Shown piece by piece: positions 9,205-24,641 of a stretch of 64,000 nt of DNA. The stretch lies in NCBI GenBank assembly GCA_016182565.1, contig JACPGI010000003.1:70206-134205 (forward strand), in the 5' to 3' direction. The notes under the pieces are model-generated. The model was not told the origin of the DNA, made no database searches, and saw only the letters and a program-made list of their open reading frames with translations. The stretch comes from a candidate division WWE3 bacterium. Lineage in GTDB: Bacteria > Patescibacteriota > WWE3 > UBA101185 > UBA10185. Made by a program: the position numbers and the translations under genes. Position 1 is the stretch's first letter. Every line of letters starts with the position of its first letter.

Positions 9205-9321
9205 ACGTTTGCAACTATTTTATCACCTCTAAGGAGCTGATTTATATACCTGATTATGCCTAAATAAATTAATAGTACTGTTCTCAACTATTGATGGATT
9301 CAGTACGTTTGCAAAACTATT
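9205..9321. promoter_or_regulatory. Direct repeat CGTTTGCAA(A)ACTATT, two copies about 100 bp apart upstream of the glycosylase-like gene
   Basis: Seen at 9205-9218 and 9306-9321, inside the 204 bp intergenic region before the 9364 start. Confidence 0.25.
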
Positions 9322-9363: not shown

Positions 9364-10110
9364 ATGGAGAATCATATGAAACCATCTGAGTTTACTAAGA
9401 GAGTTGTTGAACTCATGGAAAGGCGAGAAGGAATCTTTGCCAACCGATTTAATGTTGAGGACTGGGTACCAACAGATCTTGATTCAAAAGGAAAAGCTTG
9501 TTTTCTGTTTTTCCTCACCCAATTGGATTATGCGATTAAATCTACGCTTTTGTATGAGGGTGCCCGAAAACTTTATGCAGTAAATCCAAAGTTTTTCACT
9601 GCGGAGTTTATCTTGGATCTATCAGAAAAAGAGTTGACGGATATGTTGGCTAAATACCTTAGACCGAGATATATAAACGAGGCAGTATTTCGCTATAAAG
9701 CAAACAGCCGAAAGCTACTCGATCTGTATCAGGGTGACCCAAGAAATATTTTTAGAGCTGGTGATGCTCCTACCATTCTTAAAAAAGTCTGGGAATTCCG
9801 AGGGTTTGGACCAAAGACTGGAAATCTGTTTTTCAGATCAATGGTGACAACGTTTGAGATGGACCTTGCAAATATCGAAAGCGTATTGCCGCCGGTTGAT
9901 ATACATGATGTACGAATTGCGAGATTGATGGACTTTGTTGATAGTGATCAGATGACAGAGCGAAATGTCAGGTTGGTTAAGGAAATGTGGAGCACAGCCT
10001 GTAGAGAAGCGCATGTTAACTGGTTGATTTTTGATAAAGCGTTGTGGCTTCTTGGTTCAATAGGTAAACCTACCTCGAAGGAAGATATCTTGAGATTACT
10101 AAACCCATAA
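9364..10110 (+). CDS. HhH-GPD superfamily DNA glycosylase-like protein
   Basis: FRGFGPKTGNLFF followed by PPVDIHDVRIARL matches the EndoIII-type HhH plus catalytic Asp pattern (GVGRKTA...VDTHVxRVxxRL). There is no C-terminal 4Fe-4S cysteine cluster. Confidence 0.5.
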   Translation: MENHMKPSEFTKRVVELMERREGIFANRFNVEDWVPTDLDSKGKACFLFFLTQLDYAIKSTLLYEGARKLYAVNPKFFTAEFILDLSEKELTDMLAKYLRPRYINEAVFRYKANSRKLLDLYQGDPRNIFRAGDAPTILKKVWEFRGFGPKTGNLFFRSMVTTFEMDLANIESVLPPVDIHDVRIARLMDFVDSDQMTERNVRLVKEMWSTACREAHVNWLIFDKALWLLGSIGKPTSKEDILRLLNP

Positions 10111-11188: not shown

Positions 11189-11776
11189 CTAACGTAACCT
11201 TGTGTTGATCAAGTCTCTGAGTTGCTCAAAGATGGTGCCAAAAGGTTGAGTAGCATCCAAGATTGGTGACTTCGTAGCTTGTGCATACTCTCTGTACAGT
11301 TTGCGTGCATGTTCCAGTTGTTCAGCTGTATACGGACATGGTTTTTTGGCTTCTTCACCACGTTTGAGTGACAACTTAACTGGTAGGTCTAGCACAATTG
11401 TGAGATCCGCTTGTGGGATTTTGGAGTTCACCGCTTTGACGAACTTCAGGTCATATCCTTCAAGTCCACGGTAGACATATGCTGAGACGTTCCAACGATC
11501 TGCTAATACTAGGTAACCCTTTTGCAAGGCAGGAAGCACAAAGCGCTCATACCTGATCGCCCGATCGGTTGCAAATAGATACGTTTTCAGGAAAGCTGTA
11601 AGGTTTTTCGCATACAGACCTTCCCAAATGAATGGGCCGATTGGCGAAGTAAGTTCTTTTGTAGTCAGAACTTCACTGCCTTGGCGCTGGTAATACTCGG
11701 CTAATCGAGTGATGTGCGATGTTTTTCCAGCATTGTCGATTCCTTCGAGTGCAACAAGTAAACCTTTGGTTTTCAT
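11189..11776 (-). CDS. tmk: Thymidylate kinase
   Basis: P-loop ALEGIDNAGKTS, the DRW/Y motif region and a 195 aa length are typical of Tmk. Confidence 0.85.
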   Translation of the reverse strand: MKTKGLLVALEGIDNAGKTSHITRLAEYYQRQGSEVLTTKELTSPIGPFIWEGLYAKNLTAFLKTYLFATDRAIRYERFVLPALQKGYLVLADRWNVSAYVYRGLEGYDLKFVKAVNSKIPQADLTIVLDLPVKLSLKRGEEAKKPCPYTAEQLEHARKLYREYAQATKSPILDATQPFGTIFEQLRDLINTRLR

Positions 11777-11866: not shown

Positions 11867-12493
11867 ATGAGTAAAAATAGAAAAATATTATTTGCAACCA
11901 CTAACGAAAACAAAATAAAAAGAATTCAGAAGTTAATAAGAGATTTAGACATAGAGTTACTAACCCTCTCAGATATTCCAGAAAAGATCGATGAGCCGAA
12001 TGAATTTGGAGAGAATGCTGTGGAAATAGCCAAAAACAAAGCAATTTACTATTGGGAGGCGACTGGTAAAAAAATGCCGGTTCTTACCCAGGATGATACT
12101 ATGGACTTTTTGGGGAATGTTTCACCGGAGGATGATCCAAAAACTGCAATTAAGGAACCTGTTGTAAAAGCGTTTGGAGAGTACTCAATATCTAATGCGA
12201 TAGCCTATTACTCGAAGCTTGCAGAAAGATATGGTGGTGAAATTGACTTTGCATTTAGATACGGACATGGTTTTGTAAGTGAAGATGGGGCTAAAGGTGC
12301 TAGTTCTTCATTGTATGCCAAGCTTGTGAAAGACCCAAAGGGCATAGATAAAGTGGGTAAATATCCTTTACGTGCATTAACTAAACTTAAGATTGGGAGT
12401 AATTATGTTTATTCCGAAGACTCTACAGAAGAAGAAAAAGTTACAGCAGACTCTGATATTAAACGTGCTTTAGTTGAGTTACTTTGTTCTTAA
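11867..12493 (+). CDS. Ham1/RdgB-like non-canonical purine NTP pyrophosphatase (divergent)
   Basis: N-terminal KILFATTNENKIKRIQ...EPNEFGENAVEIAKNKA...PVLTQDD follows the ITPase pattern (KIVFATGNxGK...E.g.tf.eNA..KA...PvlADDSGL). The C-terminal half is divergent. Confidence 0.5.
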   Translation: MSKNRKILFATTNENKIKRIQKLIRDLDIELLTLSDIPEKIDEPNEFGENAVEIAKNKAIYYWEATGKKMPVLTQDDTMDFLGNVSPEDDPKTAIKEPVVKAFGEYSISNAIAYYSKLAERYGGEIDFAFRYGHGFVSEDGAKGASSSLYAKLVKDPKGIDKVGKYPLRALTKLKIGSNYVYSEDSTEEEKVTADSDIKRALVELLCS

Positions 12494-13263
12494 TTACCTG
12501 TATTTTCGTGCTTATTTCTGGAATTAAAATATGCACAATAGTCACAGTCTATATTCGCTTCGGGAATAGTGTTGGAGTTCAGACACTTTTTAATATCCAG
12601 TAGTTTATTTTCAATCCAGCTATCGTTTCCTTTATATTCTATGAGGGTCATTTCAAATTCAAGCTTGCCGTCGAATGTCTGCTTTTCAGTGTTGCCGTTG
12701 CAGTACACAAAATATCCACTTTCGCGGACTTTATACCCATTTTGCCTTAACAGCCACTGATAAACTTCCATTTGCCTTTTATAACCTTCGTGCCAATCTT
12801 TATCTAGTTGAGTTATTTCCTCGCTCTTACTTGTAGCTTTGTAGTCTACAACTATATATTCACCTTTTGAGTTTATCCACAGGTCGTCTAACGCCCCAAA
12901 AACATACAAATTTGTGGGTTTATGAAAAAACTGAATTCCCTTAAAATTATCTCTCCAAGTATCAAGATCTTTGTGGCTGGCCGGTTTTGCGTCAACTTTG
13001 TACTTAGCTATTAAAGGATGTTGCGTATCGCCTGTGCGATATGTATCAAACTCTTTTTTCAGTAAATGGTCTACAGCGCTGTTTAGGGCAAAAGGATATC
13101 CTGGGGGTCTACCTGTCCCCAATACCCTATCCAAATAGAAACATCTTGGGCAATCTATAAACAAGTCTATTTTTGACCTACTTAACTTAAATGGTTCTTT
13201 TGAATCCTTGAAATATAGGTATTTATCGGTTTTTTGCGAGTTATAGTATTTGCTCATATTCAT
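12490..13263 (-). CDS. Cas4/RecB-family PD-(D/E)XK nuclease with Cys clusters
   Basis: Motifs GALDDLW (D), EYIVVDYKAT (ExK) and QMEVYQWLL (RecB QxxxY) are present, with an N-terminal CPRC and a C-terminal C...CDYC consistent with an Fe-S/Zn site. There is no CRISPR context. Confidence 0.7.
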   Translation of the reverse strand: MNMSKYYNSQKTDKYLYFKDSKEPFKLSRSKIDLFIDCPRCFYLDRVLGTGRPPGYPFALNSAVDHLLKKEFDTYRTGDTQHPLIAKYKVDAKPASHKDLDTWRDNFKGIQFFHKPTNLYVFGALDDLWINSKGEYIVVDYKATSKSEEITQLDKDWHEGYKRQMEVYQWLLRQNGYKVRESGYFVYCNGNTEKQTFDGKLEFEMTLIEYKGNDSWIENKLLDIKKCLNSNTIPEANIDCDYCAYFNSRNKHENTGN

Positions 13264-13277: not shown

Positions 13278-14441
13278 TTAGCGATTTCCCTTAGCTCTAT
13301 TATGCGTTTTGCACAGCATTTGACAATTTTTATTAGTCGTTGCCCCACCTTTGCTCCATGCTGCTACATGGTCAGCATCCATTTCATTGAATTCCCAAAT
13401 TTTGCTGTTATTGGCATCGTGTCCAATAGTACAAAGTGGACAATTTGATATGTCTTTAGCTCTGGCGGTATCTGTCTGCATTGTATATACCGATTTTTTC
13501 GTTGCCTCATCAAACACACGGACCTCTAACAATTTTGTGTCTATAGAATTTCCTAGAATATACTCAAAAATACCTTTACGATTTTTAACATAGGGGTCGC
13601 TATAAAGCTTGTGTACTTCTTTTGATACTTTCACAGGATCATAGGCTTTTTTATGATACTGTTCATACAGTCGTCCCCACTCGAGACTGCGCATTTCACT
13701 TTCCACATCGACAAAAGTGCCCGATATCCAATCTAACACCGTGTTGAAATAGGTTTTTAATTCACTAATGCTTTTATCGTAACGATGACGACTCATGTAG
13801 TCCCCAATACTACCCTTGCTAACCCAATCTAAAGCTTGTTCCAAAAATTCCTGTCTGTTGGCGCTGCCTTTTATGTAAACGCCCCACTTTTGGATGTTTG
13901 CGTTTTGGCTGTTACTAAACTCTTCTTTGCATAATGTTACGAACGGACCAGAATACACTGCATTCAACAATTCTTGTTCGTTTAGCGGGATCCCTGCAAT
14001 ATTAATTGTTTTAAACCACTCTTTTATCTCGCTTTCAGTACCCTCACATTCATAGATGAGTAATGTAGTTTCCAAAATTTTGATTTGTTTGTCCTTAGCG
14101 ATACCGCTAAAATACTGTTCCATGCCGTTTTCATCTTTGATGGCAAATTTGTTAGTAACAAACCTACCTATGCTAGTGATTCGTTGTTGTCCGTCAAGAA
14201 CTTCAAATTTAGCCTCATTTACTTTTGTAAAATAAATTAAACCTATTGGGTACCCTTTTAGAATGGATTCAATGACAGCAACATCTTTTTTGCCATCAGC
14301 ATATATATAGTTACGTTGATACTCGGGTTGGATTGTGAGTTTACCTGATAGTCCGAACAGCCCTTTTCCTTCGAGTTCATTGTAAACGAACCCTTCGCAT
14401 ATATTTTTAATTGAAATACTTGTATTTAATGTTGTTTTCAT
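13278..14441 (-). CDS. GmrSD-like type IV restriction enzyme (DUF262 ParB-like NTPase plus C-terminal HNH)
   Basis: The N-terminus has the DUF262 signature IQPEYQRNY...LDGQQRITS. The C-terminus has the HNH motif [12 protein letters not shown]...[15 protein letters not shown]. Confidence 0.75.
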
Positions 14442-15532
14442 TTTGTTACTCGCTTTCTTACAAATAATCTTTTATAAACTTCTTTACCCTTCAAATAAGA
14501 CCCTCTGCCATAAATATTGTTAGGATCTTGGTTAACACCACGATTTGATCCTAAAATCTCAAATTGTTTGGGATTATATTTATCTAAAAAGCTAACGGGT
14601 ACACCCATCACCCCCTTATAGTCACAGGGAATGCATTTAACAGTAGAAACTTCTATCGCATTGTAATTATCATATTTTTCAAACGGTTTTTTAGTAACGA
14701 ACTTTATTATATCTGCTTCGGTCATTAATGATAAAAATTCGTGAAGTCGCCCATGGTCTAAATTTGTAAACCAGCGAACGCCTTGAACTCTAGTTATAAA
14801 TACCTTTTCTCCATTTTCATTTGTTCTTATTTCTCTTACTTGCTCTAAGTTGGCAATATTCTCTGGTATCTCATAAAACATAGCACCTCCATTAATTTTA
14901 TAGTTGTTGCCAAGCCAAACTCTATTGTCTTTGATCAGCGGGAAAACTTCTATGTATGTAATTGCGTTTAAATTACCTATAAGCAGAAATTGTTTTTTAG
15001 CTTCCACAATCCAAGCTAGAAATTCGCGGAATAAAGAAAAAGGAGGATTTGTGATAATAATGTCTGCTTCGTTACGTAGTTTCTTAAGCTCGTCACTGCG
15101 GAAATCCCCATCACCTTCAAGGTAGTGCCATTCAAGATCTTCGATATTAACCTTTCCGTCGCTAGTATTATCTTTTGTTAAAGTAAATATTTTTCCGTTA
15201 CTAATAGTTTTATTTGCATCATAAAGTGGGTTATTTGTTTCGAAAAGTGTTGGTTGATAAGAGCTTTTATAGTTTTTACTCTTTGTTGCGTAACTGGTGC
15301 TTATTAACTTTTTTATGCCAAAGCGTTCGAAGTTTTGAGCAAAATACTTAGTAAAGTTACTCCATTCTGGATCATCGCACGGTAGTAATATAGTTTTATT
15401 GCGAAAAATATCGGGGTTGTACTCTATATAAGCGGAAACCTCTTTCTCTATATCAAAATATTGAGTATAAAACTCATCATTTTTAGCAGCCTTTGCTAAC
15501 TGCAATTTCTTATTTGCAAATTCATTTTTCAT
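14438..15532 (-). CDS. M.EcoRI-family N6-adenine DNA methyltransferase
   Basis: N-terminal [22 protein letters not shown]...[13 protein letters not shown] closely matches M.EcoRI (SDEFYTQYCDIENELQYY...CNCDDP). The catalytic motif [10 protein letters not shown], is present. The start was moved to the internal Met ([10 protein letters not shown]) that aligns with the M.EcoRI N-terminus. Confidence 0.8.
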
Positions 15533-15621
15533 TGTCGTAGTGGTTTTAGAGAATAGAAACCAATGAAGGTCATCCATTCTCCGTGCAACCTTTCGGTAAC
15601 ACACATACTCTTTCGAGCATG

Positions 15622-15671
15622 ACCACTACGACATGATAGAGAAATGGATGACCATCTCTGCGTCGTAGTGG
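15622..15671. promoter_or_regulatory. Perfect 10 bp inverted repeat (CCACTACGAC/GTCGTAGTGG) with a 29 nt spacer, upstream of the MTase
   Basis: Seen directly: CCACTACGAC at 15623-15632 and GTCGTAGTGG at 15662-15671, with a nested AGAGA/TCTCT repeat in the spacer. It lies in a 314 bp divergent intergenic region. Confidence 0.3.
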
Positions 15672-15846
15672 ATTTGAAACCATGCTTAATTTATGAAGTT
15701 AAGTTTAGGTCTATTACCTTATTAAGTTGTACTAAGATCACGTTCTAATGTGATCACTAGAAGATTATACCCCAATAGTTTTCTAGTATGTAGGTTTTTG
15801 TAATAAATGCTGATTTTCGTTGTTACGGCAAGTATAAAGCGGTATA

Positions 15847-16512
15847 ATGTATGTTAGTATTATGGAAAAAAATAAAAAAATAACAACTACATCTAGAGAT
15901 GTAGAAACTACAAAAGAAAAACCTATCCTCGATAATTTAGAGAAACTTGTAAAAACGGAATCGCAGGGATTTCGACCTAGAAAACTCTTGGTAGATTTGG
16001 ATACCGCATATAAAGCTTACAACGAAGTTAAAGGAACCAAGAAAGCAGAAGATGCCGAAAAAACTTTAAATAATGTTTATAACGATGCAGTTTACGCATA
16101 TTCATTAGACAATCATGTTGCTATAACAGGTTCTGTGACCAAAACCTACAGACCATTGGTTGTAGGCATGACTGAACAGCTTATGGCGGAATTTGATTGT
16201 AAAGCACCGCATGAGAAGGCTTTAGCAGAGCTAATCGCAAGCTCGTACGCTCGTTATATCCAATTCACAAGTTTTTTTAATAATGCTCAAAATATAGATT
16301 ATCTGAGTACTGAAAAAACAAACTACTATACTATGTTTAGCAAAGAGGCCGACAAGGCACATAGGCAGTTTACTAACGCCCTCATGACATTAAAACAAAT
16401 AAAAACACCTGTTCCAACGGTGAACGTAATGGCGAAGAACGCTTTTGTAGCACAAAACCAGCAGTTAAACACTTTTGGTAATGAGAAACAAAAGGAAATC
16501 GTTAATGGGTAA
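15847..16512 (+). CDS. Hypothetical alpha-helical protein, first gene of the RT-containing gene string
   Basis: 221 aa ORF co-oriented with the downstream RT and overlapping it; no recognisable motif. Confidence 0.3.
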   Translation: MYVSIMEKNKKITTTSRDVETTKEKPILDNLEKLVKTESQGFRPRKLLVDLDTAYKAYNEVKGTKKAEDAEKTLNNVYNDAVYAYSLDNHVAITGSVTKTYRPLVVGMTEQLMAEFDCKAPHEKALAELIASSYARYIQFTSFFNNAQNIDYLSTEKTNYYTMFSKEADKAHRQFTNALMTLKQIKTPVPTVNVMAKNAFVAQNQQLNTFGNEKQKEIVNG

Positions 16513-16825
16513 TTATTCAGGAAATAAAATTTTAGTAGATGCTTGTCCAAAAATTACTTTAAAAGGAGTATTTGATGTTGCAAAAGATCAACTTCTAACT
16601 GAGCTTATGAAAAGAACGGCAAATGTTGCCGGATTTGATGTTGAATTTTCATCGAGTTCTCTTGCACACGGCGGAAAACGACTTTGGTTTAAGTGCCCTA
16701 TATGCAGTTCTCGTGCAGGTGTTTTATATAAGCACTTTTTAACTCAACAAGTTGGGTGTAGGACATGCTTAAATCTTGACTATAAAAGTAGAAGGTATAA
16801 AGGTATGACAGAAAACTCGGTGTAG
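16475..16825 (+). CDS. Hypothetical zinc-ribbon protein (CPIC...CRTC)
   Basis: 116 aa ORF with a C-x2-C...C-x2-C pattern. It overlaps the upstream ORF and precedes the RT. Confidence 0.3.
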   Translation: MVMRNKRKSLMGNYSGNKILVDACPKITLKGVFDVAKDQLLTELMKRTANVAGFDVEFSSSSLAHGGKRLWFKCPICSSRAGVLYKHFLTQQVGCRTCLNLDYKSRRYKGMTENSV

Positions 16826-16865
16826 CCTTTAGATTTACATAATAAAACCTGCCCAAAAAATTAAA

Positions 16866-18987
16866 ATGAATATGAAAAACGATATATTGTTTGATAATTT
16901 AGTAAATCCGAATAATTTGGAAAAAGCTTTTGATTACTTACTTATTGAAATAGAAGGGTCAAGCTTAGCCCTCGATCCACTGTGGACCCCTGCGGTATTA
17001 GCAATTAAAAAGCATAGAAAAGAATATTTCATTGCTCTTAGTGAGCTTTTGAGAAGTGGTGATTTTCATGCTGATTCAGCAACGTATTTTAAATTTCCCA
17101 AGGACAGTTTAGGTATAAGACCGGTGGCGGTACTATCTGTAACAGATAGGATAGTTTATCAAGCAATTTTTTTACAGCCAGTTTTAGGTAATATCCTTAA
17201 ATCCAAGTTTGTAACTCCACCTTGCTATACGCCTAATATTTCCTTAGGTCATGAAAAAACTTTCCTTGAAGATTGGCACATAAAATGGGATAGCTACATA
17301 GAGGATCAAGTTTTTGCTTATGTGGAAGGGTACAGATATAAGGTTGAGTTAGATGTAAAATCTTTTTTTTGATAACATAAATCACAAACTTATAAGAGAT
17401 TTTTTGACCAAAGATTGTGGAATCAACGGTACAAAAGTAATAGACATACTAATAAACCTATTAGAGACATGGGCTCACAAACCAGGCTTTGGTGTGCCCC
17501 AAGGACCGGAGGCATCTATATTTCTCTCATCCGCATATTTATCAAAATTTGATGAAAAAGCTTTGTCTGTTGGTAACGAGTTAGACTTCAAGATATTTAG
17601 ATATAATGATGACCTTAGTTTAATGGCAAAATCCCCAGAAATCCTCCATCAGGTTATAGAGATTTTATCAGGATATTTGTTTGATATATTCCTTGATCTA
17701 AACGGTAAAACAGCGTTTTACTTGCTTGATCAAAAAGAGATATCAAAACTAAATAAGAGGAGAATTTACTCTCCTTACAACGACGACGAAGATTCTGCTT
17801 ATACTCTTGCCACCATAGAGGATGAAGTTCCTGGATATTTAGAAAAGTTAGCAATAAATAAAAAACTTGAGCAACACGAAATATCGGCCCTGAAGTATTA
17901 CTTAAAGAGCGCAAAAAATAAAGCGTATTTCAAGCAACTTATTGATCTGCTAGATAAATCTCACTCCTTTTCATTATATATATGTAGATATGTACAAAAA
18001 TTTGTTGATGATGGAACCGTTTTTGCTTATTTGTTGAATGCCTATAACAAAAAGCATCTTTATTCGTGGACAAAGTTTTGGGTACTAAAGACTTTAATAT
18101 CATCGAAGTTATTTCAAAACTCCAAATATAAATATGATACAAAAGCAATGGTCTTGGATTCTTTTAATGATAAAAGTTGGGAAATTAGAGCACTTTGTTT
18201 ATATGTAGCCGAAGTTTTTGGTTTCCTAAGTGCTCCAACTATAACAATCGGAAAGTATTATAGATCCGCGGAAAATATCTACGAAAAGAGCATGACATCG
18301 TATTTACTCGGAAATAGAAAAGAATACAATTCCCTGTCGGAATTGTTAAGGAATGAATGTGTAGACCTGCAAATAATTGCTTACAGTTTTTTGAATAAAT
18401 TTGAATTGACACAGCTTCCAAACGATCTTTCACAATTTAGTCAAAAGTTGTTCAATATAAACGATGTCGAAGCAAAAAATGATTCTAATGTACAAATACC
18501 AAACTCTTTACTCGATCTTATTAGTGAAAGTGGAGCTGTTCACGTGACATTAGACACGAGTAAATTGAAAAAAGAGTTAGGTTTAACCTGGAACCATAAG
18601 GGTAGTATTTTGAAAAAATCAAAGCAGGTAGCCCATTGGTTGGAACAGAAGGAAACAGGTCATATCGTTATGGATGGAACGTACATATTGTCTAATCCTA
18701 ATGTTGATAGTGAAAACTGGACATTTATATCGTATGTTATTAGCCGATCTGGTAAGCAAATTACACGCAAAGAAATTAACGCTGATTCATCAGAACGTGT
18801 GTTACGCCCATTCAATAACATCCTTAATGATCTTGGATTTAAGGGTGAGATTAAGAAGTTATTTTTCCCTAAGACAGGCGATGACTCCGTAAGGTTTTTC
18901 TGTAAAATAAAATACGGAGATATGAAAACAATGTTGGTAGACGAAGAAAAGCTTAAAAGCCAGCTTAAAAAATTAAAGAGAATTTGA
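16866..18987 (+). CDS. Single-chain reverse transcriptase (Abi/DRT-like, about 700 aa with a C-terminal helical extension), interrupted by a frameshift in a T8 tract at 17363-17370
   Basis: RT motifs are all present: 1/2 PKDSLGIRPVAVLSVTDRIVYQAIF, A KVELDVKSFF|DNINHKL (split by the frameshift), B' GVPQGPEASIFLSSAYL, C RYNDDLSL (YxDD) and D/E LDLNGKTAFY. The C-terminal 430 aa or so is helical and non-RT. ORF1 (16866-17372) and ORF2 (17404-18987) join if one T is removed. Confidence 0.8.
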
Positions 18988-19058
18988 AGTTCTACGAACC
19001 ACCACGAAAGACTATGAAACACGGCTAGTAACCTCAGTAATGTTGCTATTCTTCCTGT

Positions 19059-19316
19059 GTGAACAACAGGATTAATAAAATACAAATTAATATTTATCGC
19101 AGTACAGACCTCGCTATTAGTAGCTACCTATCGCTTTCATATACCCTACTGGGTTTAGAGAAAATTGATGGTAATAGGTACGAGTTTGTTTTTGAAAAAA
19201 CCCCCGAATTAGAGAAATCAGTAGAATCATTTTTTAATAACACAGCAACCGTTTCACCTTCCGATTATTTCAATAGTATAAAAAGTTTAAAAAGCCGGAT
19301 TTATTCCAGGAGCTAA
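19059..19316 (+). CDS. Small hypothetical protein (element-borne)
   Basis: ORF only; part of a co-oriented gene string. Confidence 0.25.
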   Translation: MNNRINKIQINIYRSTDLAISSYLSLSYTLLGLEKIDGNRYEFVFEKTPELEKSVESFFNNTATVSPSDYFNSIKSLKSRIYSRS

Positions 19317-19555
19317 TGATGTTGCCTAAAGATGCAGTAACCGAATTTGCAGGTCTTTACCTCAAAAACTTTGGTGTTCAGTTGACATCGGAGGAAGCAG
19401 AGGAAAGGGCAAATAGAGTTTTTAACTTTTTCAAAACGATAATCAGGCCAGTTGAAGAAAATAACAAATTAGTGGAAGAAGTCCCCGGCCAGGAATCTGA
19501 AGCAGAAAGGAAAAATAAAACCTATGGCGATAAAAAGAAAAGTAAAAAAAGCTGA
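19316..19555 (+). CDS. Small hypothetical protein (element-borne)
   Basis: ORF with an ATGA overlap with the upstream ORF. Confidence 0.25.
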   Translation: MMLPKDAVTEFAGLYLKNFGVQLTSEEAEERANRVFNFFKTIIRPVEENNKLVEEVPGQESEAERKNKTYGDKKKSKKS

Positions 19556-19907
19556 AGGTATTAAACCAATACCCGCGGATATCTATCCTGCAAAGCTAGT
19601 TTCCATCGCAGAAGGTGATGGTGACTATGGTAAGTACTTCAAACTTGAATTTGAAGTTACCGACGGAACTTACTCCGGTGAAAAGAGAACCATCATAGCC
19701 AGCGACAAGCTTTCACGAGGTCAAAAGGGAGGCTCAAAGCTTCTTGGTATCTTGGAAACTTTAACAGGCAAGCAATTGGATTTTGACCAGGAAATTGATA
19801 TCGAAAGCTATCTTGGTTCAAGATGCAGGATATTGGTTGATGAAGCCGAAACCAAGGGTGACATCCAAATTCAGAATGTCGGTAAAGTGATGCCACCCAA
19901 AGAGTAG
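19524..19907 (+). CDS. Small hypothetical protein (element-borne)
   Basis: ORF only. Confidence 0.3.
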   Translation: MAIKRKVKKAEGIKPIPADIYPAKLVSIAEGDGDYGKYFKLEFEVTDGTYSGEKRTIIASDKLSRGQKGGSKLLGILETLTGKQLDFDQEIDIESYLGSRCRILVDEAETKGDIQIQNVGKVMPPKE

Positions 19908-19971
19908 AAAGTATCAAATTAAGGAGACAACGGGGAGGGTTTCGCGACTCTCCCCCTCCGGAAGAATCTTT

Positions 19972-22335
19972 ATGCAACAAGATTATAACAAATTAAATAA
20001 ACAACCGTCTGAGTTTTTAGACGAGTGGAAAATTGAATATGATGACAAAGGCAAGGAACTTGTGTTAGCCTGTTTGTTTTCTGACTGCGATAGTGAGGGA
20101 AACACCAAACACCTATACATGGACGCAGACACGGGGCAATTTTGGTGCCACAAATGCCATAAGAAAGGTAACCTTGTTACTGTTGCCGAGCATTTGAATC
20201 TAAACCCATCAGACCTATTTGAAAAGCCTAAAACGAAAACTGTAAGACTAAAAAGTGGTAGAAAGGTTGAACTAAAAGCAGAACCCAAGTCCGAGGAGTT
20301 ACTAGAAAAAGCCAGTAGTTACCATAACAACCTATCCGTTGAACAACGTGAATATCTGAACAAGAGGGGCATAACAAACGCTACGGTTGATACCCGGCTT
20401 ATTGGTGAGAGCGAAATATATGGAGTTAAAAGAATCACACTCCCTGTTTTTGATAAAAATGGAAATGTAATAAGTATCAAGGCTAGGGTTGTTCAAGAGT
20501 TAGAAGAAGCTACAGATGCAAAATATGTGTATTTCCCTACGGGTGCAAAGGCATCGCTTTACGGTTTAGACCTATTAGAAAAAAGTATTTCTGATTTTGC
20601 GATTATTTCCGAAGGTGAGTTTGATTCGCTAATTCTTTCACAATGGGGATACACTTCAGTTTCTTCTACCGGTGGAGCTGGAACATTTTCATCTGATTGG
20701 GTTTTATTTTTTGATAATTTCCAAAAGATATATTTTTGCTATGACAACGACAAGGCGGGCAAAGAAGGCGCAATTGAACACGCCAAAAAGTTTAAAAACA
20801 AAAAAGTATTTATAGTAGAAATACCACAAATTGAGGGTGTAAAAGATGTAACAGAATTTGCAACGGTTGCAGGAAATACAAAAGAAGATTTTGAATTGCT
20901 TTTGAAAAATGCCAAAGAATATAATCCTTACAGTCCAGAGTTCCTAAATCTTGAGTTTGGCGAGCCAATCAAAGAGTTTATTCCGTCACAGTTTTATGAT
21001 GCAGACACTACGTTTTTCACTATTCCGTTAAACATTAAAAATAATGAGGAAAGTCCATTCAGGGTTATAACCTCAAACAAAGAACTTTATACGCTAGATG
21101 AAGTTAAGGATAAGTTTAACTACAAAATAGTAAGAAATCCTGATTTTATGCAGCGTTGGAGTTCAGATGGTGTAAGGGCATATTTATCCGGCAAAGGTGC
21201 ATCTAGCTATAATATTACGTTGCAGGAGCTGGTTTCTTTCCTGAAACAATATGTTGACCTGTCAAACGAAAACTGGTATTTGGTTATAGCCCTATGGCTT
21301 TGGGGAACTTACTTTTATCGTATCTTTAATAGTTACCCCTATTTCAACGTAAACGGCTTGATGGGCTGTGGTAAGTCAAAGTTATTGGAAGTTGGCTCAT
21401 TTCTTGCTTTCAACGGTGAGTTTTTAGTTACCTCTACCCCGGCTTTTGTTATTGATTGTATAAACGATAATTGTGCAACGCTATTCTTGGACGAAGTTGA
21501 AAATCTTAAAAATGCTGCAAATCCCGACACACAAACAATGGTTCAAATGCTTAACTCTGGTTATAAGAAGGGTCCCAAGAAAGGTAAGAAAGACCCAAGC
21601 GGTAAAGGTAAAGGCTGGAACTCAATAAAACTAGACCCTTACAGCCCAAAAATGATTGCTGGTATCAAAAACATTAGCGACACGCTTATTTCTAGATCAA
21701 TAAATATGACTATGGTTTTGAGCAACAATAATGAAATCAAGAATAAAGAATTAAGCGAATCTGATACAAGATTGAGCAGTTATAGAGATACTTTCTATTA
21801 CTCTGCAATGGAACTTCACACCGATATTAAGGATATTTACAATCAACTAACCGAAACAGAAGTTTTTGGTAGAAATTGGGAAGTTTGGAGACCACTATTT
21901 TGCATCGCTTTAGCACTGAATAGCCAAAACCCTGAAAGTGAACCTGTTAACTACAACAAAGTTAGAACCTTTGCATTGGAAATAATAAAAAACCAATCAG
22001 GAATAAATGCAGAAAACCAAAGCACAATCCAAATGCTTGTGGCGTTTAGAGAAATGATGGTCCGAGATCAAAGATTAAACAACTTTTACACTATGTCGCA
22101 ACTTAAAACCTTTTTACTTGATAATCACGGAGACTATTTTGATTGGCTTGGAGAGTTCAAGGAAAGTGGCATAAGCCGATACATAGGCGATGAGTTAAGA
22201 AAGACCGGGATTGTAACGGAAGCTGCAAAAGCTGTAAAAATTGACGGTAAGACCCAAAGAGGCTTCATTTTGGATAGGAATTTAATAGAAAGGCGTCTTA
22301 AAGCCTACGGTATTGAGTTTGGAGTAACTGCGTAA
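19972..22335 (+). CDS. Primase-helicase (CHC2 zinc finger, TOPRIM, P-loop NTPase)
   Basis: It has a zinc-binding CHKCHKKG, a TOPRIM region (IISEGEFDS...CYDNDKAGKEG) and Walker A GLMGCGKSK in the C-terminal half. This is the architecture of phage/plasmid primase-helicases. Confidence 0.75.
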   Translation: MQQDYNKLNKQPSEFLDEWKIEYDDKGKELVLACLFSDCDSEGNTKHLYMDADTGQFWCHKCHKKGNLVTVAEHLNLNPSDLFEKPKTKTVRLKSGRKVELKAEPKSEELLEKASSYHNNLSVEQREYLNKRGITNATVDTRLIGESEIYGVKRITLPVFDKNGNVISIKARVVQELEEATDAKYVYFPTGAKASLYGLDLLEKSISDFAIISEGEFDSLILSQWGYTSVSSTGGAGTFSSDWVLFFDNFQKIYFCYDNDKAGKEGAIEHAKKFKNKKVFIVEIPQIEGVKDVTEFATVAGNTKEDFELLLKNAKEYNPYSPEFLNLEFGEPIKEFIPSQFYDADTTFFTIPLNIKNNEESPFRVITSNKELYTLDEVKDKFNYKIVRNPDFMQRWSSDGVRAYLSGKGASSYNITLQELVSFLKQYVDLSNENWYLVIALWLWGTYFYRIFNSYPYFNVNGLMGCGKSKLLEVGSFLAFNGEFLVTSTPAFVIDCINDNCATLFLDEVENLKNAANPDTQTMVQMLNSGYKKGPKKGKKDPSGKGKGWNSIKLDPYSPKMIAGIKNISDTLISRSINMTMVLSNNNEIKNKELSESDTRLSSYRDTFYYSAMELHTDIKDIYNQLTETEVFGRNWEVWRPLFCIALALNSQNPESEPVNYNKVRTFALEIIKNQSGINAENQSTIQMLVAFREMMVRDQRLNNFYTMSQLKTFLLDNHGDYFDWLGEFKESGISRYIGDELRKTGIVTEAAKAVKIDGKTQRGFILDRNLIERRLKAYGIEFGVTA

Positions 22336-22486
22336 CTATATGAGGCAAAGTTACTGTAATAACAAACAAAACAGTTGGTTACGAAGTAGGTTACGATATA
22401 CCCCTACCCTACGTAACCCATATCGTAACCAGAGATCTTGCTTGTCCTTACAATATAAACGCAACGCAAGGTTACAAAGTTACAAG
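22324..22486. repeat. Iteron-like cluster of at least nine GTAAC/GGTTAC motifs including an imperfect palindrome of about 54 bp (22377-22430)
   Basis: Seen directly: GGTTACGaagtaGGTTACGATATACCCCTACCCTACGTAACCCATATCGTAACC, plus GTAACTGCGTAACT upstream and GGTTACAAAGTTACAAGG downstream. It lies immediately 3' of the primase-helicase gene. Confidence 0.5.
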
Positions 22487-22493
22487 GAATCTT

Positions 22494-22853
22494 ATGCCAG
22501 TAAAAGATCTGTTGTTAAAAGTAAATAAAGCACAAACTGGAAATCATAGCGTCCATATGATTCAGGAAGTTGTAAAAGAGGTTGACTCCGAAAACCAAGG
22601 AATTCCTGCCACAGAAACCTTTGAGTCGGTTGATCTATCAACACTAAGTTCAAAGGAGCTTTTAGCTTTAAATAAACAGCTAACCTCTTGGCTGGAAACG
22701 CATGAGTGTCAAACAGGAACCGACAATAAGTTGGATATTAACGACAGACCCTATGACCACGAGCTATACCTAAAAAAGCTACGACTGTACGAAGAAACCT
22801 GTGTTGCTTACTTCTCAAGACCGCTTGGCGAGGAGTTGGAAGGTGTCTTATAA
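22494..22853 (+). CDS. Hypothetical protein (element-borne)
   Basis: 119 aa ORF between the primase-helicase and the recombinase. Confidence 0.3.
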   Translation: MPVKDLLLKVNKAQTGNHSVHMIQEVVKEVDSENQGIPATETFESVDLSTLSSKELLALNKQLTSWLETHECQTGTDNKLDINDRPYDHELYLKKLRLYEETCVAYFSRPLGEELEGVL

Positions 22854-22950
22854 CTATGTATAATTTATATGGATACATATGCAAAGATAGTGAAATGGCC
22901 GAATTGGTCTTATATCTTTGCGGATGTATCCAACCAGTTCGGCCATTTTT

Positions 22951-24576
22951 ATGGAAATAAATAGAAACCTTACAGGCTTAAAAGCCATTGAATACAACCG
23001 CAAAAGCTCGGAAGACGAGGAACGCCAAATCGCGTCTCTTGAAGATCAACATGCAGAAAATCAAAAAGTGATTGAAAGACATCAACTTAAAGTTGCAAAG
23101 TGCGACATTATTGAGGAATCTAAATCAGCCAAGAAACCTGGGCGACCGAAGTTTAATAAAATGGCTGAAGATATTGCTAATGGCAAGTATCAGGTTATTG
23201 TGTGTTGGCAGGCAAACCGTTTAGCTCGTAATTCTCGTGATGCTGGTGAAATCATTGGCTTACTTTCCGATAAAAAACTAATAGCAATCGTTACTCCTGG
23301 TAAGATTTACTATAACGGTGGTGAGGACAAACTTCTTCTTTATATCGAATTTGGTATGAGTGAAAAATACAGCGATGACTTATCAGCAAATGTTATTCGC
23401 GGTATGACTTCGAAAGTTGGTAGAGGTTGGTGGCCTGGTAGACCAAAAGTAGGTTATGTAAACATTAAATATGACGGTGAGGAACCTGTTCAGATTATAG
23501 ACGAACAAAGGTTTCCGCTACTCCGCAGAGCGATAGACCTATTTTTAGATGGTAATCACACGGCACCCCGCGTTTTAGAAATATTAAATGACGAGTGGGG
23601 TTTTAAAATGCGAAAAACCAAAAGAACCGGTGGTGGGAAGATGAGCAAAGGTAAGTTTTACAGCTTTTTATCCGACCCTTTTTACTATGGAAAATTGATT
23701 TGGGGCAAAGAGATTGGGGATGTTCATAAAAACCTGAAGCGACTCCTGAGTGAGGACGAGTTTTGGAAAGTACAGGCTCTTATGGGTAAACGCGGACAAG
23801 CAAGACCAAGTGTACATACCAAACTGCCGTTTAGAGGCCTAATTAAGTGCGGTGAGTGCCAAAGCACTTGGATTCCTTATGCTAGACCTAGGCAAACGGT
23901 TGATGGTAGCTTTAAACTGTACGAATATATTAGGTGTAACCACGACGGGATAAGTAAAAAATGTACACAAAAACAAGTAACTATCCAAGAAATTGAGAAA
24001 CAGGTTTTGGAGTTGTTGGACCAGATAACAATCTCGGAGGACTTCTGTAATTGGGCAATTGATTGGATTAAAAAGCAGCATCAAACAGAATCAAGCGCAC
24101 AACTACAAATACTCAAAAATCTTGAAAGTTCTTTGGAACAAATCCAAGGCCGCAAGAATAAGTTAGTAGAAATGTATATGGATAGCCTGTTAGACGGACA
24201 AGCAGACTATAAGAAACGCAAAGCGGATTTGGAAAAAGAGGAACAAGATATACAAAAGGAATTAAACGCCTTGAAAACCAGAACAAACAACTGGATGGAT
24301 TTGGCTATTAAAACCTTCAACTTTGCAAAGAACGCCCGCTATCACTTTGAACATGGAACATTTGAGGATAAGACTTTGATACTTCGCACACTCGGCTCGA
24401 ACTTTTACATGCTTAACGGGAAACTGTGTGTTGACCTAATAAAACCCTTCTTTATTTTCAAAAACAATCAGGATTTAGTAAATGTGCCTTTTGAAACTAT
24501 TGAAAACCCAGAATACGCCGACGTTATGGCCGGAACTGATGATCTTGAACATTGGTTTTTAAAATGGTCGGGGTAG
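22951..24576 (+). CDS. Large serine recombinase (integrase)
   Basis: The N-terminal catalytic domain has YNRKSSEDEERQIASLEDQ and ANRLARN. A recombinase domain and a zinc ribbon (CGECQ...C) follow, then a coiled coil. The stop codon overlaps the 3' end of tRNA-Pro. Confidence 0.8.
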   Translation: MEINRNLTGLKAIEYNRKSSEDEERQIASLEDQHAENQKVIERHQLKVAKCDIIEESKSAKKPGRPKFNKMAEDIANGKYQVIVCWQANRLARNSRDAGEIIGLLSDKKLIAIVTPGKIYYNGGEDKLLLYIEFGMSEKYSDDLSANVIRGMTSKVGRGWWPGRPKVGYVNIKYDGEEPVQIIDEQRFPLLRRAIDLFLDGNHTAPRVLEILNDEWGFKMRKTKRTGGGKMSKGKFYSFLSDPFYYGKLIWGKEIGDVHKNLKRLLSEDEFWKVQALMGKRGQARPSVHTKLPFRGLIKCGECQSTWIPYARPRQTVDGSFKLYEYIRCNHDGISKKCTQKQVTIQEIEKQVLELLDQITISEDFCNWAIDWIKKQHQTESSAQLQILKNLESSLEQIQGRKNKLVEMYMDSLLDGQADYKKRKADLEKEEQDIQKELNALKTRTNNWMDLAIKTFNFAKNARYHFEHGTFEDKTLILRTLGSNFYMLNGKLCVDLIKPFFIFKNNQDLVNVPFETIENPEYADVMAGTDDLEHWFLKWSG

Positions 24577-24641
24577 CAGGACTCGAACCTGCGGCCTCGC
24601 GAACCCGAATCGCGCGCTCTAGCCAACTGAGCTACACCCCG
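24565..24641 (-). tRNA. tRNA-Pro (anticodon CGG)
   Basis: A manual fold of the reverse complement gives a 7 bp acceptor stem (CGGGGTG/TACCCCG), a D-arm, an anticodon stem CGCGA/TCGCG with loop TTCGGGT, a T-arm GCAGG-TTCGAGT-CCTGC and an encoded CCA. Confidence 0.85.

What the first reader, a model, noticed from the sequence alone, without database searches (positions are those of the whole stretch)
15533..24641. Integrated element ending at tRNA-Pro(CGG): RT, primase-helicase and large serine recombinase
Ten co-oriented plus-strand genes run from 15847 to 24576. They end with a 552 aa large serine recombinase whose stop codon overlaps the 3' end (CCA side) of tRNA-Pro(CGG). This is the classic layout of an element integrated into a tRNA 3' end. 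The string encodes a CHC2-TOPRIM-P-loop primase-helicase, an adjacent iteron region, several tiny ORFs and a reverse transcriptase. A minus-strand restriction/modification-type cluster (12490-15604) sits directly on the other side of a 314 bp AT-rich gap. Together this looks like a mobile defence-carrying island, prophage-satellite-like, in a small-genome host.
Basis: partly seen in the sequence, partly recalled or inferred. Interest (0 to 1): 0.75.

Follow-up and report, generated by a model that had tools for sequence, protein, structure and literature searches.

The report
Mobile defence island at tRNA-Pro
This is a 15.4 kb mobile DNA island in an uncultured small-genome (CPR, WWE3) bacterium that a large serine recombinase has inserted into the last six bases of a proline tRNA gene; it carries its own replication genes and anti-phage cargo, and belongs to a family of such islands that has not been described for these bacteria.

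Summary
A large serine recombinase (LSR, 22918-24576) ends 12 nt inside tRNA-Pro(CGG), downstream of a DnaG-type primase-ATPase, an iteron array and a reverse transcriptase (RT).

Three corrections:
- The element is larger, 9186-24570 (15.4 kb). attL is TGGTCG at 9186-9191 and attR is TGGTCG at 24565-24570, the complement of the tRNA 3' end CGACCA. The restriction-modification cluster and four nucleotide-metabolism genes lie inside it.
- The RT (UG19-like) is split by one extra T in a T8 run. Relatives have intact 707-710 aa genes.
- The "AT-rich gap" holds a LOOT RNA.

Evidence for mobility:
- Sister elements are 82-88% identical in DNA, yet sit in hosts whose housekeeping proteins are only 41-54% identical.
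- They occupy tRNA-Pro(TGG), tRNA-Pro(GGG), tRNA-Gln, tRNA-Ala and an intron-containing tRNA, always at the 3' end.
- Six left junctions share a 35 nt arm that starts exactly at TGGTCG, after unrelated flanks.
- Cargo between the arm and the core differs in every member.

The transfer vehicle (helper phage, plasmid-like spread or DNA uptake) is unknown, and no empty site or circular form was seen.

Verdict: a new variant of a known kind, closest to tycheposons, PLE and P4-like defence-carrying satellites. tRNA targeting by an LSR clade is the unusual feature.

The parts
9186..9191 (.). attL core TGGTCG. It is identical to the first 6 nt of the tRNA gene on the + strand, i.e. the complement of the tRNA 3' end CGACCA.
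   Evidence: TGGTCG occurs only 4 times on the + strand of the 64 kb window: 9186, 24565, 29409 (the other tRNA-Pro) and 61636.
9192..9263 (+). Conserved left arm (the P' half of attP). In the excised circle it would also encode 22 further LSR residues after Ser552 (TIADDVCNYFITSKELIYIPDYA is the 23-residue tail that replaces Gly552), ending at TAA 9261-9263.
   Evidence: 95% identical over 43 nt to L040 and present in L043 (twice), L044 and L045. Homology begins exactly at TGGTCG. The ORF extension was computed.
9364..10110 (+). orf248, unknown function. There is a weak hit to an HhH-GPD base-excision family. It is conserved next to the left arm in L044.
   Evidence: 77% nt identity over 9185-10162; E 0.004, far below the family cut-off.
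10162..11172 (-). Nucleoside 2-deoxyribosyltransferase-like protein, with two domain matches (cargo).
   Evidence: PF05014, 2e-18. GC is 0.43.
11189..11776 (-). dTMP kinase (cargo).
   Evidence: (TIGR00041, 1e-28, above the family cut-off).
11867..12493 (+). Ham1/RdgB-like protein. Only the N-terminal ~78 residues match the family (cargo).
12490..13263 (-). PD-(D/E)XK (Cas4/RecB-like) nuclease. This gene is conserved in several family members.
   Evidence: It is 80% aa identical in L034 and present at the left of L041/L042.
13278..14441 (-). Type II restriction endonuclease (DUF262/GmrSD_N plus HNH).
   Evidence: (REase_II, 3.6e-82).
14438..15532 (-). EcoRI-like N6-adenine methyltransferase. 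The likely start is ATG at 15532 (MKNEF...); the mechanical ORF runs to 15604.
   Evidence: 6e-117; MTase_II, 2.6e-89; the start is shared with L030.
15584..15711 (-). LOOT RNA (Rfam RF03000), in the divergent region between minus-strand cargo and the plus-strand core.
   Evidence: 59.6 bits against a gathering score of 46.4. Also found at the same position in L030 (69.4 bits) and L046 (69 bits). Folding z-score is -6.8 on the minus strand.
15847..16512 (+). orf221, unknown function. It is shared with L038 and L040.
   Evidence: 39-43% identity. No family match.
16475..16825 (+). Small CxxC...CxxC protein (116 aa ORF, 106 aa as called publicly). It is shared with L038 and L040.
16866..18987 (+). 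UG19-like (Class 1 UG/Abi) reverse transcriptase with YNDD intact, interrupted by a +1 T in the T8 run at 17363-17370.
   Evidence: The joined 706 aa protein matches RT_UG19 at 8.9e-47 in one stretch. Intact relatives exist.
19059..19316 (+). DUF5659 protein, the most widely conserved core gene apart from the recombinase.
   Evidence: 1e-8. Present in every relative.
19316..19555 (+). orf79, a core gene of unknown function.
19524..19907 (+). orf127, a core gene with weak similarity to a phage replication-initiation family and to SSB.
   Evidence: NF046043, 3e-6, below the family cut-off; phrog_378, 0.004.
19972..22335 (+). Zn-ribbon plus DnaG/TOPRIM primase, fused to a DUF3631-like P-loop ATPase. 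This is the presumed replicative primase-helicase.
22336..22493 (.). Iteron-like array, the presumed origin or operator: GGTTACG twice, CGTAACC twice (inverted) and GTTACAA twice.
   Evidence: (repeat I1). L034 and L041 have a different repeat (GTTACA/TGTAAC) at the same position.
22494..22853 (+). orf119, a core gene just upstream of the recombinase. It is a candidate regulator or directionality factor (inference only).
22918..24576 (+). Large serine recombinase. The catalytic motif is YNRKSS. The protein is 552 aa when integrated and 574 aa across attP.
24565..24570 (.). attR core TGGTCG.
24565..24641 (-). tRNA-Pro(CGG), the host target. Its last 6 nt or fewer are supplied by the element.

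Best explanation
Window 9186-24570 is an integrated mobile element of about 15.4 kb.

Shown by the sequence and by comparison:
- Its large serine recombinase recombined an element site (attP) with the extreme 3' end of tRNA-Pro(CGG).
- The crossover lies within TGGTCG, the complement of CGACCA. The element therefore re-supplies at most the last six bases and the tRNA stays intact.

Inferred:
- After excision the circle would restore a recombinase ORF that runs across attP (574 aa instead of 552 aa).
- The circle would replicate from the iteron array next to the DnaG-type primase / DUF3631-like ATPase gene, with orf127 as a possible initiator or ssDNA-binding protein.

Shown by comparison:
- A conserved core is kept: LOOT RNA, DUF5659, orf79, orf127, primase, iterons, orf119, recombinase.
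- The stretch between the left arm and the core is a cargo bay that differs in every relative.
- Here the cargo is a type II restriction-modification pair, a Cas4-like nuclease, four nucleotide-metabolism genes and a UG19-type reverse transcriptase. The RT is currently out of frame.

Not known: how the element moves between cells.
For: 1. Junctions. attL reads TTT|TGGTCG|ACTATAGCAGACGACGTTTGCAAC and attR reads AAAA|TGGTCG|GGGTAGCAGG.

2. Six left junctions (window, L040, L043 twice, L044, L045) share an invariant block of about 35 nt that starts exactly at TGGTCG. Their upstream flanks are unrelated.

3. Right junctions. The window, L038 and L040 are 82-88% identical over 5.2-5.4 kb up to the tRNA. 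The tRNAs are Pro(CGG), Pro(TGG) and Pro(GGG). Their T-stems differ but each stays self-complementary, so the crossover must lie in the last ~10 nt.

4. Hosts are divergent. L040 flank genes are 41-54% aa identical to window genes, and there is no synteny.

5. More distant members sit at the 3' end of other tRNAs. The recombinase ORF abuts or overlaps the tRNA 3' end except in L034, where about 45 nt and a terminator hairpin intervene:
- tRNA-Gln in L041, L034, L048 and L049
- tRNA-Ala in L046
- an intron-containing tRNA in L047

6. Variable cargo at one position:
- type I restriction-modification (L034)
- type IIG methyltransferase plus PLD-SNF2 (L041)
- AAA_5 plus a CobT_C-domain (vWA-like) protein (L040)
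- SNF2 plus a methyltransferase (L046)
- nSTAND6 (L047)

7. The recombinase has all three LSR domains and the catalytic Ser motif.

8. Iterons lie directly after the primase gene. Their position is conserved while their sequence changes between lineages.

9. No capsid, tail, portal, large terminase or conjugation genes were found in any member.
Against: - No empty tRNA-Pro(CGG) site from a close relative of this host was found, and no attP (circular) junction. The only genome scan reached hosts at 47% identity or less. The arm search returned only attL-type junctions.
- The att core is only 6 nt, and dyad symmetry of the reconstructed attP and attB is weak.
- L038 shows no left arm within 10 kb.
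- The helicase function of the C-terminal domain is inferred from motifs and from how homologous domains are fused to primases. Its core was modelled with pLDDT below 50.
- The frameshifted RT shows that at least some decay or switching-off has occurred.
- All three assemblies carrying T8 may derive from one study.
Confidence: 0.85

Rival explanations
1. The element is a phage satellite. It is excised and replicated when a helper phage infects, and it is packaged into the helper's capsids, like PICI, PLE, P4 and marine VEIMEs.
For: - The size is 13-15 kb, with an integrase, a primase and an adjacent iteron origin. PLE also uses an LSR, and PLEs were the only reference satellites with one (PMC9618062).
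- Small proteins matching Terminase_2 open the plus-strand operon in L041 (1.4e-11) and L046 (weak).
- Defence cargo occupies a fixed hotspot, as in P4-like satellites (own knowledge).
- Spread between divergent hosts needs some vehicle.
Against: - The Terminase_2 match covers only the N-terminal HTH part of the profile (positions 1-55 of 141).
- The window's own copy has orf221 and orf116 at that position instead, with no match to any family.
- No capsid-remodelling, portal or major capsid genes are present.
- No relative was found in IMG/VR by protein or by arm sequence.
- No helper phage is known.
Confidence: 0.3
2. The element is an integrative plasmid-like replicon that spreads without a capsid, for example by the DNA-uptake machinery common in CPR bacteria, or by vesicles. 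This would resemble cargo-type tycheposons.
For: - It has a complete integration and replication set but no packaging or conjugation genes.
- Cargo-type tycheposons have the same logic: a site-specific integrase, replication genes and cargo. 27 of 937 carry an LSR (bioRxiv 10.1101/2020.12.28.424599).
- Some relatives lack even the primase (L046, L047).
Against: - No partition or mobilisation genes were found, and no free circular contig.
- The role of DNA uptake in CPR bacteria is my own background knowledge and was not tested here.
Confidence: 0.3
3. The region is a decayed prophage remnant or a fixed genomic island that no longer moves.
For: The RT is frameshifted. The Ham1-like gene matches its family only in the N-terminal part. 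No excision product was observed.
Against: - The same compact gene set with both ends defined recurs in the window and L040. The core recurs in at least 8 further loci, none with structural genes.
- The recombinase, the primase and both att arms are intact.
- 82-94% identical copies sit in hosts that are only about 50% identical.
Confidence: 0.07
4. The RT break is not a dead gene. It could be an expression switch: phase variation at the T run, transcriptional slippage, or +1 ribosomal frameshifting at UUU-UGA. Any of these would give low or switchable RT levels.
For: - Both halves are otherwise open and conserved, and YNDD is present.
- The break is UCU UUU UUU UGA. A +1 slip of tRNA-Phe lands on UUU again and puts GAU in the A site, which is exactly the frame required (sequence reasoning).
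- The same T8 is present in the window (same sequence as an NCBI WWE3 record) and in two separate runs.
Against: - Relatives read AAA TCC TTT TTC GAC with only T5 and are in frame, so the site is lineage-specific and not conserved.
- No stimulatory Shine-Dalgarno-like sequence lies upstream.
- A single recent slippage mutation explains it most simply.
Confidence: 0.2
5. The tRNA belongs to the element (a cargo tRNA) rather than being the host target.
For: Homology between the window, L038 and L040 runs through the whole tRNA and stops at its 5' end.
Against: - The three tRNAs are different isoacceptors (CGG, TGG, GGG) with different anticodon and T arms, and other lineages sit at Gln or Ala.
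- The window's own second tRNA-Pro(GGG) matches L040's att-site tRNA in the T arm.
- attL repeats only the terminal 6 nt.
- The through-tRNA homology is explained by tRNA-Pro conservation.
Confidence: 0.03

Closest known systems
Tycheposons (Prochlorococcus; Hackl et al., bioRxiv 10.1101/2020.12.28.424599, later in Cell)
   Same: Both are small tRNA-associated integrative elements in streamlined genomes. Both have a site-specific integrase, their own primase or helicase, and a variable cargo module. A minority of tycheposons (27 of 937) use a large serine recombinase.
   Different: The host phylum differs (CPR/WWE3). This entire family uses an LSR. The core genes differ (DUF5659, orf127, DnaG-DUF3631 primase, LOOT RNA). 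The cargo here is anti-phage defence and nucleotide metabolism rather than nutrient acquisition. Protein-level relatedness to tycheposon genes was not tested.
PLE (phage-inducible chromosomal island-like elements of Vibrio cholerae)
   Same: Both have LSR-mediated integration, their own replication initiator with an iteron origin, a size of about 18 kb, and an anti-phage role. PLEs were the only reference satellites with a serine recombinase (PMC9618062).
   Different: PLE integrates into Vibrio cholerae repeats, not tRNA genes, and it needs the phage ICP1 (both from my own knowledge). No sequence similarity was detected here, and no helper phage is known.
P4-like satellites with defence hotspots, and SaPI/PICI
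   Same: Both have integration at a tRNA 3' end (P4), a primase-helicase with an adjacent origin (the SaPI pri-rep-ori layout), and a fixed hotspot holding interchangeable defence systems. These points come from my own knowledge of Rousset et al. 2022 and the SaPI literature.
   Different: Those elements use tyrosine integrases with common cores of tens of base pairs, and they encode capsid-redirecting or packaging functions. Neither feature is seen here.
Phage large serine integrases (phiC31, Bxb1, A118) and SCCmec Ccr
   Same: The domain architecture is the same, including the zinc ribbon. Short or no att identity is expected. SCCmec likewise inserts at the 3' end of a conserved gene.
   Different: Sequence identity to phage LSRs is only about 21-25%. 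Characterised LSR attB sites lie in protein-coding genes or intergenic DNA, whereas tRNA targets are typical of tyrosine integrases (PMC8092301; otherwise my own knowledge). Here the recombinase ORF also spans attP.
UG19 reverse transcriptases (Class 1 UG/Abi; Mestre et al. 2022, PMC9226505)
   Same: The joined RT matches the PADLOC RT_UG19 profile from position 40 to 523 of 562 at 8.9e-47. It has the repeat-containing (HEAT-like) region and an extra C-terminal domain, as in 'UG19-large'.
   Different: The RT is frameshifted in this window. It is carried on an LSR element in CPR bacteria. No UG19 member has been tested experimentally, and defence is only predicted.

Membership tests
Large serine recombinase (serine integrase) | N-terminal resolvase catalytic domain with the nucleophilic Ser in a Y-x-R-x-S-S/T context | tested here: met
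   PF00239 at 3.5e-18, residues 23-170. The motif IEYNRKSSEDE is present.
Large serine recombinase (serine integrase) | C-terminal Recombinase domain plus zinc beta-ribbon, with total length over ~450 aa (not a small resolvase or invertase) | tested here: met
   PF07508 (residues 200-292) and PF13408 (residues 304-367). The protein is 552 aa and matches PHROG 95 'integrase' over residues 13-520.
Large serine recombinase (serine integrase) | Recombination between attP and attB with a 2 bp crossover and no long common core | tested here: inconclusive
   The junctions share only TGGTCG, which fits an LSR. The crossover dinucleotide cannot be read from sequence, and the dyad symmetry is weak.
tRNA-integrated genomic island / integrative element | Integrase gene at one end next to the tRNA 3' end, with a copy of the tRNA 3' terminus at the other end | tested here: met
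   The LSR stop lies 12 nt inside the tRNA. TGGTCG is found at both 9186 and 24565.
tRNA-integrated genomic island / integrative element | The same element occurs in different genomic contexts or hosts, or the site is empty in relatives | tested here: met
   Different tRNAs and unrelated flanks occur in divergent hosts. An empty site in the same species was not found.
Phage satellite (PICI / PLE / P4 type) | Integrase plus an own replication module with an origin | tested here: met
   LSR, primase-ATPase and iterons are present. Origin function is inferred.
Phage satellite (PICI / PLE / P4 type) | Genes that redirect helper packaging or capsid assembly (small terminase, capsid-size or scaffold proteins) | tested here: not met
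   None were found in the window's copy. In L041 and L046 there is only an HTH-limited Terminase_2 match.
Phage satellite (PICI / PLE / P4 type) | Helper-phage-dependent induction and transfer | not testable with these tools
   This needs experiments or particle-associated metagenomes. No relative was found in IMG/VR.
DnaG-type primase fused to a helicase/ATPase | Zinc-binding domain plus TOPRIM RNA-polymerase core | tested here: met
   - Pfam Toprim_2
- TIGR01391 dnaG domain, 7e-21
- PDB 2au3 at 1.8e-6 by sequence and 1.2e-12 by fold
- pLDDT 85-94 over residues 110-320
DnaG-type primase fused to a helicase/ATPase | A recognisable helicase fold (SF3 or SF4) in the C-terminal half | tested here: inconclusive
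   Walker A and B motifs are present. Homologues are DUF3631-type and are fused to DnaG or AEP primases. The ATPase core was modelled at pLDDT below 50, and no helicase structure was matched.
UG19 / Class 1 UG-Abi reverse transcriptase | RT domain with YxDD, best match to the UG19 profile, and a C-terminal repeat-containing region | tested here: met
   RT_UG19 at 8.9e-47 is the top of 48 families. YNDD is present. There is a HEAT-repeat-like hit. Class features are taken from PMC9226505.
UG19 / Class 1 UG-Abi reverse transcriptase | An intact, expressible gene | tested here: not met
   There is a +1 T in the T8 run at 17363-17370. Relatives are intact at 707-710 aa.
Type II restriction-modification system | Adjacent methyltransferase and endonuclease genes | tested here: met
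   MTase_II at 2.6e-89 and REase_II at 3.6e-82. The two genes overlap by 4 nt.
LOOT RNA (Rfam RF03000) | Score above the Rfam gathering threshold over the full model | tested here: met
   59.6 bits against a threshold of 46.4, covering model positions 1-121 of 121. L030 scores 69.4 bits and L046 scores 69 bits.

The most novel reading that the evidence does not exclude
A broad clade of CPR large serine recombinases has specialised in reading the conserved acceptor/CCA end of tRNA genes. The core is the complement of the last six tRNA bases: CGACCA for Pro and CAGCCA for Gln. The clade extends down to at least 37% identity with this LSR, out of 572 homologues found.

The recombinase gene itself spans attP, so integration swaps its C-terminal tail. 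The protein is 574 aa in the circle and 552-569 aa when integrated, depending on the tRNA. This could give the element a built-in sensor of its own state that biases integration against excision without a separate directionality factor.

Such enzymes, with attB sites present in essentially every bacterium, would also be ready-made genetic tools for CPR bacteria.
Probability: 0.2. Interest if true: 0.75.

Novelty: new variant of a known kind. Interest (0 to 1): 0.58.

Why it matters
- Mobile elements of CPR/Patescibacteria are barely characterised. This work gives a whole family with base-pair-resolved ends, a conserved core and a defined cargo bay.
- It shows how these tiny genomes trade anti-phage systems between hosts that are only about 50% identical in their housekeeping proteins. 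The systems seen include restriction-modification types I, II and IIG, UG19 RTs, a STAND NTPase and an AbiJ-like protein.
- It extends large serine recombinases to tRNA 3'-end targets, which is classically tyrosine-integrase territory.
- It provides candidate integrase/attP/attB sets for engineering organisms that still lack genetic tools.
- It gives a genomic context for the orphan LOOT RNA.

Tried and rejected
- **Long tRNA-derived direct repeat as attL.** None exists in the window at up to 3 mismatches in 25 nt or up to 2 in 13 nt. The real repeat is only 6 nt and was found through homology with L040.
- **Empty site through exact-protein look-ups of flank genes.** The radical-SAM gene is not on record. 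The Ham1-like gene returned only the same strain.
- **Genome-collection scan with the flanking ABC transporter.** The nearest hosts are 47% and 37% identical with no synteny.
- **IMG/VR scans with the primase, the LSR and the arm pattern.** Nothing was found.
- **Annotated phages.** Only distant matches were found (primase N-terminus 29%, LSR ~21-25%).
- **Left arm in L038.** It is absent within the 10 kb held.
- **Dyad symmetry of reconstructed attP and attB.** It is weak and uninformative.
- **Conserved programmed frameshift in the RT.** Rejected, because relatives lack the T run.
- **RT-specific non-coding RNA.** The conserved intergenic block is a LOOT RNA that also occurs in an RT-less member (L046), so it is not RT-specific.
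- **Inovirus idea.** No Zot/pI-type ATPase or coat-like small proteins were found.
- **Structure of the ATPase domain.** It was modelled too poorly to classify.
- **Text on the LOOT motif.** The discovery paper does not describe it in its main text, and no supplements are held.

Full report
**1. Checking the observation**

The plus-strand ORF string from 15847 to 24576 is present. ARAGORN and Rfam both place tRNA-Pro(cgg) at 24565-24641 on the minus strand.

The last ORF (22918-24576, 552 aa) has Resolvase, Recombinase and Zn_ribbon_recom domains. It matches PHROG 95 'integrase' over residues 13-520 at 2e-68, so it is a large serine recombinase (LSR) and not a small resolvase. Its codons AAA TGG TCG GGG TAG run into the tRNA, so the stop lies 12 nt inside the tRNA 3' end.

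The 787 aa protein is a DnaG-type primase. The evidence is:
- Toprim_2
- PHROG 47 and 239
- TIGR01391
- Aquifex primase 2au3 by sequence and by fold at E 1e-12

It also has Walker A and B motifs further downstream.

The minus-strand neighbours are a type II methyltransferase, a DUF262-HNH endonuclease and a PD-(D/E)XK nuclease.

**2. The reverse transcriptase is broken**

PADLOC matches the 168 aa ORF (16866-17372) to the N-terminal part of the UG19 and UG21 RT profiles. It matches the 527 aa ORF (17404-18987) to the remainder. The two ORFs are in different frames.

The break is AAA TCT TTT TTT TGA, with eight T at 17363-17370. Removing one T gives ...DVKSFFDNINHKL..., a typical RT motif. The joined 706 aa protein then matches RT_UG19 in a single stretch at 8.9e-47 and passes the Pfam RVT_1 threshold.

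Homologues of 707-710 aa at 62-64% identity are single intact ORFs. At this spot they read AAA TCC TTT TTC GAC, with only five T. The T run therefore arose in this lineage and then gained one base.

The same T8 is present in the window, whose sequence is also in an NCBI WWE3 record, and in two Logan assemblies from different runs that are 100% identical to the window.

According to Mestre et al. 2022, UG19 is a Class 1 UG/Abi RT with a repeat-containing (HEAT-like) region and an extra C-terminal domain. It is predicted, but not shown, to act in defence.

**3. Relatives and the real boundaries**

Contexts of the RT, primase and LSR homologues reveal a family with a conserved core: DUF5659, a ~70 aa ORF, orf127, a ~785 aa primase, an 84-119 aa ORF and an LSR.

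Every member with DNA available sits at the 3' end of a minus-strand tRNA. The recombinase ORF abuts or overlaps the tRNA end, except in L034, where about 45 nt and a terminator hairpin intervene.

| Locus | tRNA at the right end |
|---|---|
| Window | Pro(CGG) |
| L038 | Pro(TGG) |
| L040 | Pro(GGG) |
| L041, L034, L048, L049 | Gln |
| L046 | Ala(CGC) |
| L047 | A tRNA split by a group I intron |

L038 and L040 are 88% and 81% identical to the window over 5.2-5.4 kb. Their host flanks share only 41-54% aa identity with window genes, and there is no synteny. The elements have therefore moved between divergent hosts.

The three tRNA-Pro genes differ in the T stem, and each stem remains self-complementary. 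The exchange point must therefore lie in the shared last ~10 nt.

L040 also matched the window at 9186-9265. The match begins at TGGTCG, the same six bases that begin the tRNA gene on the plus strand. One metagenome scan with this arm found three more contigs carrying four more copies. In all six junctions the invariant block TGGTCGACTATAG..GAC.ACGTTTGCAACTAT starts exactly at TGGTCG after unrelated upstream sequence.

The element is therefore 9186-24570, which is 15,385 bp including both cores. The restriction-modification genes, the Cas4-like nuclease, a Ham1-like gene, dTMP kinase, a nucleoside deoxyribosyltransferase-like gene and orf248 all lie inside it.

For the Gln-targeting lineage the analogous core is TGGCTG, the complement of CAGCCA.

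**4. Anatomy and likely mechanism**

*Shown.* The att cores, the conserved left arm, the intact LSR, the primase, and an iteron-like array directly after the primase gene. The array has GGTTACG twice, CGTAACC twice and GTTACAA twice. Its position is kept in L034 and L041 while the repeat sequence changes to GTTACA/TGTAAC.

*Inferred.* The LSR cuts within TGGTCG. The excised circle replicates from the iterons using the primase-ATPase. orf127 may help replication, given its weak similarity to a phage replication-initiation family and to SSB.

The C-terminal ATPase domain belongs to a large family, with 6705 cluster representatives at E ≤ 1e-3. Members of that family carry DUF3631 and are fused to DnaG or AEP primases. 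Its fold could not be modelled with confidence.

In the reconstructed attP, the LSR ORF continues across the junction and ends at TAA 9261-9263, giving 574 aa in both the window and L040. The window, L040 and L045 lose similarity at about that stop codon. When integrated, the tail depends on the tRNA: 552 aa here and 569 aa in L038. Whether this matters functionally is unknown.

**5. Cargo**

The stretch between the left arm and the core differs in each member.

| Member | Cargo |
|---|---|
| Window | Type II restriction-modification, nucleotide-metabolism genes, UG19 RT |
| L034 | Type I restriction-modification |
| L041 | Type IIG methyltransferase, PLD-SNF2 and a NucS-like nuclease |
| L040 | AAA_5 plus a CobT_C-domain (vWA-like) protein |
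| L046 | SNF2 plus a methyltransferase |
| L047 | An nSTAND6 NTPase |

In L038 and L040, a 634-636 aa protein with a weak AbiJ_NTD3 hit occupies the slot where the window has the RT. This is the pattern of a defence hotspot on a mobile platform.

**6. What kind of element**

None of the members has capsid, portal, large terminase, tail, relaxase or secretion genes. No relatives were found in IMG/VR, and only distant matches were found in annotated phages.

A small protein matching the HTH part of Terminase_2 opens the operon in L041 and L046. This is a hint of packaging, not evidence for it.

The closest known kinds are:
- Tycheposons: tRNA-associated elements with an integrase, a replication module and cargo. 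27 of 937 carry an LSR.
- PLE: an LSR-using satellite with an iteron origin (and own knowledge).
- P4-like satellites with defence hotspots (own knowledge).

tRNA targets are typical of tyrosine integrases. As far as I know, characterised LSRs use other sites. A search of the held library found no description of LSR elements at tRNA genes in CPR bacteria.

**7. Verdict**

It is a new variant of a known kind of element.

Its main points of interest are the tRNA-end specificity of a whole LSR clade in CPR bacteria, the recombinase ORF that spans attP, and the well-defined defence cargo bay.

The open points are the transfer route, direct proof of excision, and whether the RT break is decay or a switch.

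Noticed in passing
window 15584-15711 (-); L030 3768-3894 (-); L046 7791-7912 (-): A LOOT RNA (Rfam RF03000, 60-69 bits) sits in the divergent region between minus-strand cargo and the plus-strand core in three family members. In the window and L030 it lies about 50 nt upstream of the ATG of two unrelated methyltransferases. In L046 it lies upstream of an unknown gene, in an element with no RT. It may be a core regulatory RNA of the family.
   Followed up: partly
window 24565-24570 joined to 9192-9263 (reconstructed attP): The recombinase ORF stays open across attP, giving 574 aa in both the window and L040. The tail TIADDVCNYFITSKELIYIPDYA replaces the final Gly. The conserved left arm ends at about that stop codon. 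When integrated, the tail length depends on the tRNA (552 aa here, 569 aa in L038).
   Followed up: partly
L043 (reverse strand), arms at 1567 and 2738: Two copies of the element's left arm lie 1.17 kb apart and flank a two-gene cassette. The second copy is preceded by GTTTTTACC, which resembles the right-end arm GGTTTTTAAAA. This suggests tandem insertion next to a decayed element.
   Followed up: partly
L048 11650-16300; L049 9186-13672: At tRNA-Gln, an RT-primase-LSR element is followed in tandem by a different small element (a rolling-circle Rep of the REP_ORF2-G2P family plus a 510 aa LSR). The internal junction carries TGGCTG. L041 has the same host neighbourhood with only one element.
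   Followed up: partly
L047 11700-11975 (-): A tRNA gene is interrupted by a group I intron (Rfam RF00028, 64.7 bits) and was missed by ARAGORN. It lies directly after the stop codon of a 37%-identical LSR whose element carries an nSTAND6 gene and no primase.
   Followed up: partly
window 29409-29487 (-): A second proline tRNA, Pro(GGG), has the same TGGTCGGGGT 3' end and the same T arm as the tRNA occupied in L040. It is unoccupied here and is a natural candidate attB within the same window.
   Followed up: no
window 9364-11776: orf248, the deoxyribosyltransferase-like gene and dTMP kinase have 40-45% GC against about 34.5% for the host flanks and 33-40% for the rest of the element. This suggests recent acquisition from another source. 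The function of this nucleotide-metabolism module on a mobile element is unknown.
   Followed up: no
L038 7053-8963; L040 7063-8967: A 634-636 aa protein with only a weak AbiJ_NTD3 hit occupies the slot where the window has the RT, downstream of the same orf221 and Zn-ribbon gene pair. It is possibly an uncharacterised defence gene.
   Followed up: no
L001 (Logan contig SRR12113420_192), end at window position 24593: One public assembly of the same strain stops 29 nt into the tRNA. This is about where a k=31 assembly graph would branch if the sequence from the tRNA 3' end onward is shared with another context in the sample. That context could be another genome with the same tRNA, or an empty site. 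The k value is my own assumption.
   Followed up: no
window 41756-49459 (+): A very large ORF of 2567 aa lies in the host part of the window. It was not examined.
   Followed up: no
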